From assembly GCA_000182565.2 (NCBI GenBank), contig KQ257465.1: a DNA stretch of 64,000 bases; one strand, written 5' to 3'. The notes under the pieces were generated by a model that was not told the origin of the DNA, made no database searches, and saw only the letters and a list, made by a program, of their open reading frames with translations. This document shows, one piece after another, positions 16,749 through 21,222 of the stretch (within the stretch, counting starts at the first letter, position 1; each line of letters starts with the position of its first letter). This DNA comes from Spizellomyces punctatus DAOM BR117 (Eukaryota). The position numbers and the translations under genes were made by a program.

Positions 16749-17672
16749 TCAGCCCACTCTTTCAGACGCATTACATGTACTGCACAAAATAACCAGTCCA
16801 GTATCATTGTCGAAGGTAAAGTCAGGCGTGCCAGGACAGAGTTGCCTGAGCAGAGGGCCTATGATGAGAGCCAGGTGATTTGTCACAATACAGGAAATTG
16901 GACTTACTCGTGATTGGAGGAAAGTTGTCGTATTTGGCGTTTAAGAGTCTCCACTGAGAACGGAGATCCAGTGCGAGGATCTACTCGCAGGTTACAGGAA
17001 GAGCAGACTATTTGGTTTCCGGCTATAGTCATCACTCCCTGCCGGCAGACAATGCACGTATCTGAAGAATCTGGGGCCCCATAACCTGGTATATCATCAT
17101 CCATCATAATCATATCAATGTCTTCCTCTTGATTTAACGAGCTCTCGTACACCGCAAGGATCTGATCATCCCACGTCTCAGGTCCCTCCTCATACCCTGC
17201 CGTCTCAAGTGCTAGTTCCCGCAAGATCTCTTCCTCGAAAACCAAAGGAATAGATCCTTGTGCATTAGCTTCTGTTCGAAACTGTTGCCACTGACTGGAA
17301 ATGAAAGAACGGGCCCACTGAAAAAGGGCGAAGAATGGTATCTCAAGCAGATATCGTTTGAATGTTCAGAGGTGCAGTTTCTACCTGTTGCTCAACAATT
17401 TCATCCCAGTTCTCATTCACCTGGACCTTTGGACCATCTTTCAGTGGACTACTGGCAATATTCCCAAACCTCCTCCGCCGAACTTCTGCATCGCGAGACT
17501 CTTTTACTCTGCTTAAACATTGGAGCCTGAAACGTTCACGCCATGTCGGTGTACTAGGTGATGAGGGGGATCCAGTGCGTTCGGACCGTTCAGACGGTGA
17601 GAGAGGGGAGGATATATGTGGTGCGTAGGGTCGCTTGACAGGTGTTCTTGCCGGACATTGCGTATGTGCCAT
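16749..17672 (-). CDS. RPAIN: RPA-interacting protein (RIP/RPAIN)
   Basis: N-terminal PTWRERFRLQCLSRVKESR; C-terminal zinc finger CIVC..CSSC..HEQLC..CSTC after splicing; TGA stop at 16749. Confidence 0.8.
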
Positions 17673-17891
17673 TGGGTCTAGTCGCAATTAGTGAATGAAG
17701 TGGGGCGAAATCCTTTCCTTGTCCGAAATCACGTTACTGTACTGTACGTAAGCAATAGGTCACGTGGCTTTTGGAATTGCCAAGAGGCCGTCTTACTATT
17801 GGAATATTTATTTTCTAAAACACAATTCTACAAAATAATAGTAATCAAAAGAATGGTCATCTTAAGCAATCAATGGACGCTTAATATGCAG

Positions 17892-19338
17892 TTATTTGCC
17901 GGGTGGTGATAGGCCTATCCAAGCCGGGGGAATTTTTAACTGTTCGCAGAGCGCACGACCAAAGAGCTTGTTATCGTGAACCAGGAGGAACGGCTGAATG
18001 ACGGCACCCACTATAACCATCGTGTGGCCAAAAAAATCCATAACGTACGGGCAAGCCTTTCCAGATATTGCCTCTGAAATGTCGAACATTATGATTATTC
18101 CACTGCGGATTCCAAACGGTACAACTAGTCTTACCGTATGCAAACATTGTTGCATGAATGCACCATCCAAACATGAACAGCCCGACAATACGGACGGAAC
18201 GCCGAAGAACTTCTCTCTCCAAGCGCTGGGTTTTTTGCTTTCTTGTCATGCTTTTCTTTGTAAAGGACACCCGTTTGCTGCGAGCACCTTGGCTATTCTC
18301 CTCTGCCTGGTCATCAAGGTCCCCGTTTCCAAAAAAACTCAATGAGAATTTGATATTCTCCCTAAGTCGCGCCCAAAATCCCCCACCACCGTCCGCCGCA
18401 GGCACCATTTGTTCATGTTGCGATTGATCAATCGTACTGTTTCCATTTGAAGACATCATCAGTTCAGTCTTAATCATTCCGCTCAGCTCATTAACTTGTG
18501 ATCGAACGACTAGGAAAGTTTTCCCGTAGAATACAACCGTCAGCACCATTGTCGAACTCAACATGATGATGCAGAAAATGGTATGAGCTAGAGCCAGGGG
18601 TTCGCGGGTATACCATGCCCCAGAGCAAGCGATCTGGGCTGGCCGCAAGACGAATCGTCCAGTAAGCCAAGGGTATGTCCCGATGAACAAACCAGGTACC
18701 CATGTCATCATTGCCATTACGATCATGATCGGGACGGTCACTTGTCTTTGCTATAAAAATAGATTTTCAGGAATTTGATCGCAAGACCCCAATCCCCATT
18801 ATTTTGCCAGCAACTAACCTTAACAATGACCAGATATCTCTCGATGCTGATAGTGAAAGTTGACATCCCCGCCTCAGATCCAAACCCCAACCCACTCCAC
18901 CCTTCGAACGCGCAAAAGTTGGCCGAGGCAAACTCCCCGTGTATCGAATTGTAGATGGTTATGGGCGCAGAAAATCTTAAAACAGCGACAATATTGAAAT
19001 AGCCAGGAAATAAGATAATAGCCAGGGATACAGAGCATAATTTTGGTACTCACCCGCCAAAAAGCATGTTCGCAATAACCATCCCGAAAATAACCACCAT
19101 GTTTGAAGGCGTCCATAGTCGGCGATCGCGACAAAACACATACAGTATGACAAAGTTGAAAAGGAAACAAAGTGCTAACAAAATCCCAACCTTTCAGTTT
19201 CGAGACGAAGGCAAATGAGTCACAACTACCGACCCCACACAAAATACTTTTTTACTATTCTCTTACAAGCATGCTAAGAATTTGCGTCGATCTCGACGTA
19301 GGCACAGGAAAGTCCTGGCTTTCAATTCCGGTGTACAT
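17892..19338 (-). CDS. Rhodopsin-class (opsin-like) GPCR, 5 exons, about 387 aa, lacking the Schiff-base lysine
   Basis: Exons 19338-19267, 19190-19054, 18975-18819, 18750-18135 and 18073-17892 join in frame. Motifs: FNFVILYVF..RLWTPSN, CAFEG..SIERYLVIVK, EREVLRR..FMFGW, QPFLL..NKLF. Confidence 0.88.
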
Positions 19339-19977: not shown

Positions 19978-21222
19978 TTACTTCATTGATAGCACATGCC
20001 TCACGTCGTCGACATATCGCAAGGCATCCAAAAAAAGTAGCATATCCAGCAACGCTTCGTCCCGCGGGTCGCTTATCCAGCCCTCTATTGGTATTCCATT
20101 GTCTGGAAAGAGTCACAACAGCGGACGAGATCAGGAGCGAGATCAATAGCATGTGCATAACGTCGTACGAGATCTCACCTTCATTGTCTTGGTAGGATAT
20201 CGGAGAATTATCCACTAAACAAACCTGCGACAAGTCGGGTTCGACGATTGCGAGGTTCTTAATGTAAGTTCCATTGGAGTGTCGGCAGGCCTTGACCCCG
20301 TAGACAAGTCAGCTAGGAATGAAAGGACTATGCCAAAGCATTCGATACTCACCTGTCTGAAAAGACGCTGGGAGACCATATTCCGCCGTGGGTCTAACCA
20401 GTCAATAACCGGATCGGCATATTCGGGCATCGACGCCGTAAATATAACGACATTATACCATTCGCTGACCTTGGAAATGGAGCACAAGATTATGAAGATC
20501 AGTAATTGCTCAATAGAATGAGAGCCGTATCAGTACATAAAAGCCACCTTCTGGAGAAAAAAATCGCAAAACGGTCTCTTGAATACATAATATAAACACA
20601 CATGACGGTCAACCGTGACCTCGACTACGTGATCATAGTTGCGTGAGTGTCGAGATGTCGAGTGAATAAGAGTCTCGTCCAGATCTAGCACTAGAGTTTT
20701 CTTTCTACAAGGTATGGAGGGAGTTCTGCGAAGGGTATTTTGTGTAGCAGACCTCTTCACTGGTGGCGTTTTAGACGCTCGAGGTCCACGTAAATGTCCT
20801 AGTTGACGAGGATGTTGGACATCGCTGGCATTGGAGTCCGAGTCGGTAATTGAGTCTGATTCGGACGAGGAGGAAGATGAAGAGGATACGCCACTTCCTG
20901 AGGAACCACTTCCCTGCTTTTCCTTCAGACGCCGAGACCTTCTCGGTGAAGGGCTCCCTGTCGCCAGCTTTCCTTTTGACACTTTCCCCCCACGGCGTTT
21001 CGCACTAGCAGCCTCACTCGTACTCCCAAGTCGCACCCTCCCAGCTTGCAAGCGCTGCCTCCAACTTGAAACTGGCAACAAACCGATGAAAATCCTCAAT
21101 ATCCATTGTATACTCCATGTGAGATATGACCAAAGGGTTTCCGCTGCTTGGGTTAGGATTGGCTCCGTAGCATCCTCGCTCGGAACAAGTGACACACCAG
21201 CTTTGACCATGGTATAGCTCAT
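19978..21222 (-). CDS. NEM1: NEM1/CTDNEP1 (Dullard) HAD-family protein phosphatase
   Basis: [55 protein letters not shown]-terminal hydrophobic segment; start codon uncertain. Confidence 0.88.

What the first reader, a model, noticed from the sequence alone, without database searches (positions are those of the whole stretch)
17950..18920. Rewired opsin pocket: E113 kept, K296 to Ile, E181 to Arg, NPxxY to QPFLL
Seen by manual alignment (bovine numbering): Glu at 113 (the vertebrate counterion site), extra Glu123, Arg181, the C110-C187 pair intact, His at about 292, Ile at 296, and Asn replacing the TM2 Asp83. Inference: it cannot form the canonical retinal Schiff base; an internal E113-R181 salt bridge or a charged small-molecule ligand is plausible. 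It would then be a chemoreceptor on an opsin scaffold, with an altered activation switch.
Basis: partly seen in the sequence, partly recalled or inferred. Interest (0 to 1): 0.7.

Follow-up and report, generated by a model that had tools for sequence, protein, structure and literature searches.

The report
Chytrid opsin-like receptor without retinal lysine
A soil chytrid fungus carries an expressed, animal-style G-protein-coupled receptor that looks most like opsins but, like its fungal relatives, lacks the lysine that binds retinal, so it is an ordinary member of a known fungal receptor family and not a rewired light sensor.

Summary
Window 17892-19338 (minus strand) holds a 5-exon, 387-aa class A GPCR, SPPG_07527 of Spizellomyces punctatus.

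The reading "rewired opsin" is only partly supported. Its relatives are chytrid and blastoclad rhodopsin-family GPCRs. Only 1 of 80 aligned homologues has Lys at 296, and that one is an unnamed metagenome protein. None of the 12 published fungal members has it. Arg/Gln/Lys at 181, a missing Pro6.50 and NPxx-not-Tyr are common across the family. So Lys was not visibly lost here, and no Lys-bearing ancestor is in evidence. Opsins are the best solved matches, but aminergic and prostanoid receptors follow closely.

The gene is spliced and expressed and conserved in a sister species. It is most likely a ligand-sensing GPCR.

Two side results:
- The public model lacks TM1.
- The published "Lys-bearing" paralogue SPPG_00350 owes its Lys to an added base and a read-through intron.

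An earlier scan note (e1-7220881) reached the same verdict on another paralogue.

The parts
17892..19338 (-). Whole coding region of the GPCR gene (SPPG_07527), five exons, 387 aa
   Evidence: Gene model. It is 100% identical to the annotated protein P0001 over 333 aa.
19267..19338 (-). Exon 1: Met1-Leu24, N-terminal tail with a D-F-P-V-P motif. Not in the public model.
   Evidence: The first 54 residues align without gaps to the paralogue P0003 (23/54 identical) and to P0004 (22/54). No RNA junction reads cover it.
19054..19190 (-). Exon 2: TM1 (Asn1.50 at 19157-19155), ICL1 and TM2. Asn stands at the Asp2.50/D83 position (19070-19068).
   Evidence: HMMER aligns this Asn to D83. The public model starts at an internal Met in this exon.
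18819..18975 (-). Exon 3: end of TM2, ECL1 and TM3, with Cys110, Glu113, Glu123 and E-R-Y
   Evidence: Pfam 7tm_1 at E 0.0024 on this exon alone.
18135..18750 (-). Exon 4: ICL2, TM4, the ECL2 hairpin (Arg181, Cys187), TM5, a long ICL3 of about 100 aa, and TM6 (G-W-C-I-H: no Pro6.50, His268)
   Evidence: ICL3 carries 23 of the 35 differences from the sister-species orthologue.
18074..18134 (-). Intron 4 (61 bp, GT..AG), confirmed by RNA reads
   Evidence: In one search the joint 18073->18135 skips 61 bases (CT..AC on the + strand), seen in 3 reads with 3 starts. Eight loose-end reads at 18074 begin with letters that match 18136-18147.
17892..18073 (-). Exon 5: ECL3 (the only extracellular Lys, 18059-18057), TM7 (His292, Ile296, QPFLL), helix 8 (N-K-L-F), C-tail and stop
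   Evidence: RNA depth is 11-25 over this exon.
17764..17891 (-). 3' untranslated region
   Evidence: RNA depth is 14-26 here and falls to about 1 below 17764.

Best explanation
The locus encodes SPPG_07527, a seven-helix class A (rhodopsin-family) G-protein-coupled receptor. It belongs to the receptor family specific to zoosporic fungi (chytrids and blastoclads). Within that family it sits in a Spizellomycetales subclade with its paralogue SPPG_07634.

It is not a retinal pigment. Position 296 is Ile, and the family as sampled has no Schiff-base Lys.

Inferred mechanism:
- A small polar or charged ligand binds in the pocket under the ECL2 hairpin. Going by the alignment to rhodopsin, the pocket is lined by Glu113, Arg181, His268 and His292.
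- Binding moves TM6.
- The conserved E-R-Y, Tyr5.58 and the long basic ICL3 pass the signal to a heterotrimeric G protein.

The usual sodium/water switch residues are replaced (Asp2.50 to Asn, Pro6.50 to Ile, NPxxY to QPFLL). Activation must therefore rely on a variant switch. Much of that variant is already typical of the fungal family.

Shown here: gene structure, expression and splicing of the last intron, family membership, the residues at each site, and conservation in a sister species. Inferred only: that it binds a ligand, which ligand, and G-protein coupling.
For: Identity:
- Exon 4 is 100% identical to NCBI 'uncharacterized protein SPPG_07527 [Spizellomyces punctatus DAOM BR117]', which has PF00001 on record.

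Relatives:
- In 1.84 billion representatives only 87 proteins reach E<=1e-3. The best are P0002 (E 2.6e-155), P0003 (7e-43), P0004 and P0005.
- Of 20 hits looked up, 10 carry an organism name, and all 10 are zoosporic fungi: Spizellomyces, Powellomyces, Phlyctochytrium, Gaertneriomyces, Sorochytrium, Chytriomyces and Kappamyces.
- P0003 is SPPG_07634, which is listed among the fungal Rhodopsin family in Table S1 of Krishnan 2012.
- The subclade P0001-P0005 has FastTree support 0.995.

No Lys:
- Ile aligns to K296 in HMMER's alignment.
- Lys stands in that column in 1 of 80 homologues and in 0 of 12 Dataset S1 sequences.

Fold:
- AlphaFold2 gives pLDDT 87.9 with an ECL2 beta hairpin.
- All 1000 re-aligned PDB chains are class-A-like, at Z 20-23.5 for the rows shown.

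Functional constraint:
- The orthologue is 87% identical. Differences are 5 of 92 in ICL2-TM5, 23 of 88 in ICL3 and 7 of 89 in TM6-tail.
- R181, H268, H292, I296 and QPFLL are unchanged.

Expression:
- 162 RNA reads were laid and intron 4 is spliced as predicted.

Context against a retinal role:
- Galindo 2022 (passages read) found only one of three carotenoid-pathway enzymes in Spizellomycetales.
Against: - No ligand, G-protein coupling or localisation is shown by anything here.
- Three canonical class A microswitch residues are missing together (D2.50, P6.50 and N7.49/Y7.53). The receptor could therefore be constitutively active, could signal in another way, or could be inert.
- Opsins are consistently the top solved matches (19 of 21 PDB sequence hits; squid rhodopsin leads by 11 to 21 bits). 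A specific kinship with opsins is not excluded.
- Exons 1-3 have no junction reads. TM1 rests on homology only.
- The pocket assignment of residues follows rhodopsin numbering, not measured coordinates.
Confidence: 0.65

Rival explanations
1. It is a true opsin relative that senses light or a retinoid without a covalent bond. Retinal or another chromophore sits non-covalently in the pocket, and Glu113, Arg181 and His292 replace the Schiff-base/counterion pair.
For: - Vertebrate opsins are the best PDB sequence matches. In one search, 19 of 21 hits are named rhodopsin or cone opsin, with a best E of 4.8e-7, against 0.0045 for the first non-opsin receptor.
- In structure-based alignment, identity is highest with bovine rhodopsin: 21-23%, against 10-16% for most other receptors.
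- The Glu113 site and an opsin-like ECL2 hairpin are present.
- Lys-less opsin clades are known in animals (Guhmann 2022, abstract and passages read).
Against: - No Lys at 296 in this protein or in 79 of 80 homologues.
- Spizellomycetales lack two of the three carotenoid-synthesis enzymes.
- Likeness to opsins is a trait of the whole family, not of this gene. The paralogue P0003 and the 69-sequence profile also put opsins first, with aminergic receptors within a few bits.
- Fold searches do not separate opsins from EP4, NK1R or 5-HT receptors.
Confidence: 0.07
2. It is a ligand-independent or decaying receptor. Loss of Asp2.50, Pro6.50 and NPxxY has left it constitutively active, a scaffold, or on the way to becoming a pseudogene.
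For: - Three microswitch motifs are changed together.
- Gln at 7.49 occurs in only 2 of 80 homologues, this protein and its orthologue.
- RNA depth over the body of the gene is low, 0 to 2.7 over 18084-19043.
Against: - The reading frame is intact across five exons with canonical splice sites.
- The orthologue is 87% identical. Only 12 of 181 positions differ outside ICL3, against 23 of 88 inside it.
- E-R-Y, Trp6.48 and the disulfide Cys pair are kept.
- The last intron is spliced in RNA. The library is 3'-biased, so low depth over the gene body says little.
Confidence: 0.12
3. It is a proton or metal-ion sensor. The cluster His268, His292, Glu113 and Glu123 in the pocket titrates or chelates, as His clusters do in animal proton-sensing GPCRs. 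That comparison is recalled, not tested here.
For: - Two His and two Glu stand at pocket positions by rhodopsin numbering.
- His292 is kept in all 4 subclade members that have a TM7. His268 is kept in P0001, P0002 and P0005.
Against: - The idea rests purely on residue types at aligned positions.
- Side-chain geometry was not available.
- The family varies widely at these columns: His at 292 in 7 of 80 and at 268 in 3 of 80.
Confidence: 0.08

Closest known systems
SPPG_07634 (P0003) and the fungal Rhodopsin-family GPCRs of Krishnan et al. 2012 (PMC3251606)
   Same: - It is the closest paralogue: 33% identity, E 7e-43, in a clade with support 0.995.
- Shared features: E-R-Y, Cys110/Cys187, Arg181, His292, no Lys296, no Pro6.50, a long ICL3, and the F-P-x-P ... 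L-Y-V-F-x-R-x-x-x-L-W N-terminal pattern.
- Krishnan (passages and Table S1 read) reports that the fungal members form their own cluster apart from the 13 human subgroups.
   Different: - SPPG_07527 is not in their Table S1 or Dataset S1.
- It has Glu rather than Gln at 113, Asn rather than Asp at 2.50, and QPFLL rather than N-M-L-I-M.
[quoted passage not shown] 2017 (PMC5410147)
   Same: It comes from the same genome and the same fungal family (P0019, E 1e-9, 24% identity). It shares E-R-Y and the Cys pair, and opsins are also its top PDB hits (paper section 8).
   Different: - It sits in a different subclade.
- It keeps Asp2.50 and N-P-V-L-F, and has Asp113 and Gln181.
- The paper's Lys320 exists only in their edited model. 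The unedited 363-aa model has Ile at that position.
Vertebrate rhodopsin and cone opsins (e.g. PDB 1F88, 9IBW)
   Same: - They are the best solved sequence matches.
- Shared features: the G-G-F and H-G-x-F motifs of TM2/ECL1, C-x-x-E-G in TM3, E-R-Y, the ECL2 hairpin with the conserved Cys, and N-K-x-F in helix 8 (alignment).
- The fold matches at Z 21-23.5.
   Different: - There is no Lys296, and Arg replaces Glu181.
- Asp83, Pro267, Asn302 and Tyr306 are absent.
- ICL3 is about 100 aa long.
- It has a fungal gene structure and fungal relatives.
Lys-less opsin relatives of animals: gluopsins (Glu296), nemopsins (Arg296), placopsins (Guhmann et al. 2022, PMC9368030)
   Same: These are class A receptors close to opsins that lack the retinal Lys and are discussed as possible chemoreceptors. 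Some have a derived NPxxY (abstract and passages).
   Different: - Those clades are animal. Gluopsins and nemopsins are nested inside Lys-bearing opsins, so their Lys was lost secondarily. Here no Lys-bearing relative is in evidence.
- That paper has no occurrence of 'fungi' or 'chytrid'.

Membership tests
Animal (type 2) opsins | Schiff-base Lys in TM7 (bovine K296, 7.43) | tested here: not met
   Ile aligns to K296 (HMMER alignment; family column; codon 18014-18012). The only extracellular-side Lys is in the ECL3 loop.
Animal (type 2) opsins | Acidic counterion at 113 or 181 | tested here: met
   Glu at 113 and Arg at 181. Without a Schiff base this residue has nothing to counter. Position 113 is a variable polar column in the fungal family, with Glu in 6 of 80.
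Animal (type 2) opsins | Placement inside the opsin clade against non-opsin class A outgroups | tested here: inconclusive
   No animal GPCR set could be brought into a tree. All named near relatives are fungal. Opsins lead the PDB rankings, but aminergic receptors, GPR84 and prostanoid receptors are interleaved.
Animal (type 2) opsins | Forms a retinal pigment or gives a light response | not testable with these tools
   This needs expression and spectroscopy.
Class A / rhodopsin-family GPCR (Pfam PF00001) | Match to the 7tm_1 profile | tested here: met
   PF00001.27 is on record for P0001. Single exons give E 5.5e-6 and 0.0024. The exon-4 fragment alone scores 26.5 bits, under the 30.5-bit cutoff. 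832 to 949 PDB class A sequences match the family profiles.
Class A / rhodopsin-family GPCR (Pfam PF00001) | Seven transmembrane helices plus helix 8 | tested here: met
   The AlphaFold2 model of P0001 shows TM2-TM7 and helix 8. TM1 comes from my exons 1-2 (hydrophobic stretch at residues 15-47, Asn1.50) and is supported by homology only.
Class A / rhodopsin-family GPCR (Pfam PF00001) | E/DRY, the TM3-ECL2 disulfide Cys pair, Trp6.48 | tested here: met
   E-R-Y, C110, C187 and W265 are present.
Class A / rhodopsin-family GPCR (Pfam PF00001) | Asp2.50, Pro6.50, NPxxY | tested here: not met
   Asn, Ile and QPFLL stand at these positions. These are common but not obligatory class A features. Within the fungal family Pro6.50 is present in 39 of 80 and Tyr7.53 in 14 of 80.
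Fungal (chytrid/blastoclad) Rhodopsin-family GPCRs, Krishnan 2012 | Clusters with the fungal members rather than with animal subgroups | tested here: met
   The top hits are fungal. It forms a clade with SPPG_07634, a listed member, at support 0.995. Animal sequences were not in my tree, so separation from animal groups rests on the paper.
Fungal (chytrid/blastoclad) Rhodopsin-family GPCRs, Krishnan 2012 | Motifs named in the paper: Asp in TM2, D/ERY, NP in TM7, Cys in ECL1 and ECL2 | tested here: inconclusive
   E-R-Y and both Cys are present. The TM2 Asp is Asn and NP is QP. The paralogue SPPG_07634, a listed member, also lacks the Pro of NP, so these motifs are not strict.

The most novel reading that the evidence does not exclude
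The zoosporic-fungal receptors may be the nearest surviving outgroup of animal opsins and may preserve the pre-retinal, chemoreceptor state of the opsin pocket. SPPG_07527 has a Glu at the vertebrate counterion site, vertebrate-like TM2-ECL2 motifs and an ECL2 hairpin lid. On this reading it would show that this pocket architecture existed before the Schiff-base Lys was acquired. With the only claimed Lys-bearing fungal member removed as a gene-model artefact, the origin of the retinal Lys would then lie on the animal stem.
Probability: 0.1. Interest if true: 0.65.

Novelty: new member of a known kind. Interest (0 to 1): 0.3.

Why it matters
The gene itself adds one more, rather derived, member to a receptor family of zoosporic fungi that has been known since 2012. 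No ligand is known for any member. A polar pocket with Glu, Arg and two His is a reasonable starting point for de-orphanising one of them.

Three practical points follow.

1. The public gene model lacks TM1 and should be extended by 54 residues.
2. Neither this gene nor any sampled relative supports type 2 opsin photoreception in Spizellomyces.
3. The one published fungal 'type 2 opsin with a conserved lysine' appears to get that lysine from an added base plus a retained intron. That model, SPPG_00350T0L, was later used as the search seed for 'green-light type II rhodopsin' across fungi (Galindo 2022, methods passage). The inference that the fungal ancestor had a type II retinal opsin therefore needs re-examination.

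Tried and rejected
- Whole-genome search for paralogues: no genome is held for this window. I used protein libraries and the papers' supplements instead.
- Run index: no RNA holder listed.
- Contigs of runs X1-X3 are colinear with the genome, introns included, and their kind is unknown. They say nothing on splicing.
- Junction reads for introns 1-3: none. Depth is 0 over 18660-19043.
- Looking for this gene in Krishnan 2012: it is absent from Table S1 and Dataset S1. The full-text search for SPPG_07527 found 0 papers.
- The search 'chytrid / class A GPCR / zoospore' gave nothing relevant among the 10 papers listed.
- Covariation of acidic 113 with basic 181: none.
- ESM Atlas: only generic 7tm_1 neighbours. 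The structure neighbours are EP4, CCK, melanopsin-like and opsin-3-like.
- Foldseek and VIA-align cannot separate opsins from other class A receptors.
- Mapping TM5 pocket residues onto rhodopsin: dropped. Counting from Cys187 and counting from Tyr223 disagree by three residues, and HMMER's alignment there is gapped.
- Pseudogene: rejected.
- Animal contamination or recent transfer: rejected. The introns are short and fungal in size (61-78 bp, like the 56-125 bp introns of SPPG_00350). The protein's contig is 579 kb. There is an orthologue in a second Spizellomyces, and there are paralogues in other Spizellomycetales.
- PDB search with exon 4 alone: a single weak hit (SWS1 opsin, E 0.047). It was superseded.
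Full report
WHAT IS THERE

The window is eukaryotic DNA with about 47% G+C. Three-frame translation of the minus strand around the finding shows GPCR-like pieces in different frames, separated by short gaps. Joining them at GT..AG sites gives a five-exon gene: 19338-19267, 19190-19054, 18975-18819, 18750-18135 and 18073-17892. The introns are 76, 78, 68 and 61 bp, and the product is 387 aa.

The largest exon is 100% identical to NCBI 'uncharacterized protein SPPG_07527' of Spizellomyces punctatus DAOM BR117. That record (P0001) is 333 aa, has PF00001 on record and lies on a 579-kb contig. Spizellomyces sp. 'palustris' has an orthologue, P0002.

P0001 starts at an internal Met in TM2. My model adds 54 residues. 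They align without gaps to the N-termini of the closest relatives (23/54 identical to P0003, 22/54 to P0004) and include Asn1.50 and the L-Y-V-F-x-R-x-x-x-L-W motif. The public model is therefore missing TM1. This rests on homology, because the RNA reads do not cover it.

EXPRESSION

No run is indexed as an RNA holder. Laying the raw reads of one RNA run, of which about 6 in 100 were read, placed 162 reads on the stretch.
- Depth is 11-26 over 17764-18083. The library is 3'-biased.
- The joint 18073->18135 (61 bases skipped, GT..AG on the minus strand) appears in 3 reads with 3 starts.
- Eight further reads hang over 18074 with letters that match the end of exon 4.

Intron 4 and transcription of the minus strand are thus confirmed. 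Introns 1-3 are not covered.

It aligns C-A-F-E-G to C110-N-L-E113-G and E-R-Y to 134-136. It puts Arg on E181 and Cys on C187, His on A292, Ile on K296, and Q-P-F-L-L on N302-Y306. It also puts Asn on D83, with a two-residue gap after it. Glu123 sits one residue after bovine E122.

Two further points. CWxP reads G-W-C-I, so there is no Pro6.50, and position 268 is His.

IS THERE A LYSINE ANYWHERE USEFUL?

The 387-aa protein has 13 Lys. Twelve are cytoplasmic: one in ICL2, one at the cytoplasmic end of TM5, seven in ICL3, one in helix 8 and two in the tail. One (residue 333) is in ECL3. In the AlphaFold2 model (pLDDT 87.9, pTM 0.82) this residue lies in the loop 278-282 of P0001, between TM6 and TM7, and 15 residues before position 296. 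Nothing places a Lys at pocket depth.

WHAT FAMILY IS IT?

A HMMER scan of 1.84 billion representatives gave only 87 proteins at E<=1e-3. Of 20 looked up, 10 carry organism names, and all 10 are zoosporic fungi.
- The best hit outside the orthologue is P0003 = SPPG_07634 (33% identity, E 7e-43).
- It is followed by proteins of Powellomyces hirtus and Phlyctochytrium arcticum.

SPPG_07634 is one of the eight S. punctatus 'Rhodopsin family' sequences of Krishnan et al. 2012 (Table S1). By that paper's trees, the fungal sequences form a fungal cluster apart from 13 human subgroups and from Trichoplax (passages). SPPG_07527 itself is not in their table or their FASTA file, and the full-text search found no paper that names it.

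In my FastTree of 79 homologues, P0001-P0005 form a clade with support 0.995, and P0001+P0002+P0005 group at 0.849. One row of the 80-sequence alignment was dropped for low occupancy. That alignment took 80 of the 91 held proteins. I had left out 8 that were shorter than 260 or longer than 640 aa, and 3 duplicates.

THE 'REWIRED' SITES SEEN AGAINST THE FAMILY (n = 80)

| Site | Residues in the column |
|---|---|
| 296 | L11 I9 S9 F9 A8 Y7 V5 T4 and others; Lys once |
| 181 | Q30 R14 S7 T7 E7 K2; Arg in all five members of the subclade |
| 113 | N13 Q12 S10 H8 D8 E6 Y4; Glu in P0001 and P0005, Gln in P0003 and P0004 |
| 2.50 | D64 N7; lost in P0001 (Asn) and P0005 (Gln) |
| 6.50 | Pro in only 39 |
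| 7.49 | N61; Gln only in P0001 and P0002 |
| 7.53 | L21 Y14 V14 |

The single Lys at 296 is in P0085. This is an unnamed metagenome protein with Tyr at 113 and N-P-I-I-Y, so it is probably a real opsin of some animal. His292 is shared by the four subclade members that have a TM7.

Reading the 12 fungal Rhodopsin-family sequences in Krishnan's Dataset S1 and counting six residues back from the N/D of the TM7 NP-type motif gives S, S, S, Y, V, Y, C, Y, Y, H, V, A. None is Lys.

So Ile296, Arg181, the missing Pro6.50 and the missing Tyr7.53 are family or subclade traits. Specific to this lineage are Glu113 together with the loss of Asp2.50, and Gln7.49. Acidic 113 and basic 181 do not go together across the family (3 of 14 against 12 of 61, Fisher p = 1). 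That comparison is not corrected for relatedness.

HOW OPSIN-LIKE IS IT?

With P0001 alone, 19 of 21 PDB sequence hits are named rhodopsin or cone opsin (best E 4.8e-7). One hit is a 'nascent chain' entry, and the first other receptor is NPFF2 at E 0.0045. The same holds for the rest of the family:
- For the paralogue P0003, the top 17 hits are opsins (41.8-38.2 bits), followed by 5-HT2B at 37.8.
- For the eight-sequence subclade profile, squid rhodopsin scores 102.8 bits, GPR84 91.8, MW opsin 89.7 and 5-HT1A 87.7.
- For the 69-sequence family profile, squid rhodopsin scores 195.7, kumopsin 176, the alpha-2A adrenoceptor 174 and bovine rhodopsin 171.
- Ahrendt et al. report the same for SPPG_00350 (section 8).

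By fold the picture is flatter.
- Foldseek ranks opsins first, but EP4, DP1 and A2A are interleaved.
- VIA-align gives Z 23.5 for squid rhodopsin, 22.9 for EP4, 22.7 for spider rhodopsin, and 21.9 for both NK1R and bovine rhodopsin.
- The ESM Atlas neighbours are generic 7tm_1 clusters.

I conclude that 'opsin-like' is a fair description of the best match for the whole fungal family. It is not evidence that this gene descends from a Lys-bearing opsin.

THE LYS-BEARING PARALOGUE

The literature offers SPPG_00350, which was modelled as a retinal-binding opsin with 'conserved lysine' K320 and 326-NPVLF-330 (Ahrendt 2017). The paper's archive (supplement 7) shows how that model was made.
- Its model SPPG_00350T0L needs one base added to the genome.
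- It then reads straight through 65 bases that begin GTAAGT and end ACAG.
- Lys320 is encoded just before that AG.

The archive also holds the 363-aa JGI model. That model aligns to the unedited locus, and P0019, the NCBI protein of the same length, reads L-L-D-C-L-A-F-L-G-A-I-V-N-S-A-F-N-P-V-L-F in TM7. This reading is obtained only by splicing out those 65 bases. It fits the family's TM7 column for column and has Ile six residues before the Asn.

My inference is that the published lysine is a gene-model artefact and that S. punctatus has no known Lys-bearing class A receptor. I could not test this with RNA, because the locus is outside the window.

CONTEXT AGAINST A RETINAL ROLE

Galindo et al. 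2022 (passages) found that Spizellomyces has lost the CyclOp system and that Spizellomycetales keep only one of three carotenoid-pathway enzymes. They used SPPG_00350T0L as the seed for 'type II rhodopsin' searches.

CONSTRAINT

P0001 and P0002 differ at 35 aligned positions plus one gap over 269 residues: 5 of 92 from ICL2 to TM5, 23 of 88 in ICL3, and 7 of 89 from TM6 to the tail. R181, G-W-C-I-H, H292, I296 and Q-P-F-L-L are unchanged. The unusual residues are therefore maintained, not decaying.

MECHANISM (inferred)

The protein is a ligand-sensing class A receptor whose pocket, by rhodopsin numbering, carries Glu113, Arg181, His268 and His292 (with Glu123 nearby) under an ECL2 hairpin. 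It would signal through E-R-Y, Tyr5.58 and a long basic ICL3 to a G protein. The activation core has neither the Asp2.50/Asn7.49 site nor Tyr7.53. I put about 0.95 on the family assignment and about 0.6 on the chemoreceptor mechanism. The rivals are a non-covalent retinoid or light sensor (0.07), a ligand-independent or degenerating receptor (0.12), and a proton or metal sensor (0.08).

NOVELTY

This is a new, derived member of a known kind. Neighbouring genes are unrelated: an RPA-interacting protein downstream and a NIF-type phosphatase upstream.

Noticed in passing
outside the window: SPPG_00350 locus (protein P0019; paper supplement seen): The published 'conserved lysine' K320 of the chytrid type 2 opsin model SPPG_00350T0L is encoded inside a 65-base GTAAGT...ACAG stretch. 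That stretch is read through only after one base is added to the genome. The unedited 363-aa model splices it out, has a family-typical TM7 and has Ile at the Lys position.
   Followed up: partly
window 19054-19338 (-): The public protein model for SPPG_07527 (333 aa) starts at an internal Met in TM2 and lacks TM1. An upstream exon and the first part of exon 2 add 54 residues that align without gaps to the paralogues' N-termini.
   Followed up: yes
proteins P0085 and P0071 (unnamed metagenome contigs of about 2.9 kb): Two sister proteins lie at the edge of the hit list (E 3e-4 to 8e-4). P0085 has Lys at 296, Tyr at 113 and N-P-I-I-Y, so it looks like a true opsin. Its sister P0071 has Ile at 296. 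Their origin is unknown.
   Followed up: no
proteins P0007 (817 aa, Sorochytrium), P0011 (625 aa), P0012 (533 aa, Chytriomyces): These records hold two class A receptor units in tandem in one predicted protein. P0007 has C-N-I-E-G-F-F and C-D-I-E-G-F-F, each followed by E-R-Y. They are either real double receptors or merged neighbouring genes.
   Followed up: no
proteins P0016 and P0091 (Kappamyces sp.): NCBI names these chytrid proteins 'Melanopsin', although the aligned position 296 is Thr (P0016). The name looks like a best-hit transfer and is no evidence of an opsin.
   Followed up: partly
window 16907-17687 (-) and 20218-20487 (-): The flanking genes are unrelated to the receptor. An RPA-interacting protein lies in two ORFs (RPA_interact_N at E 5.6e-7, RPA_interact_C at E 7.4e-5). 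A NIF/FCP1-like phosphatase fragment scores E 2.7e-12.
   Followed up: partly
window 17792: One contig of run X3 has an extra T behind 17792, in the 3' UTR, at depth 2.4. The RNA reads do not show it (0 of 13). It is probably an assembly error.
   Followed up: no
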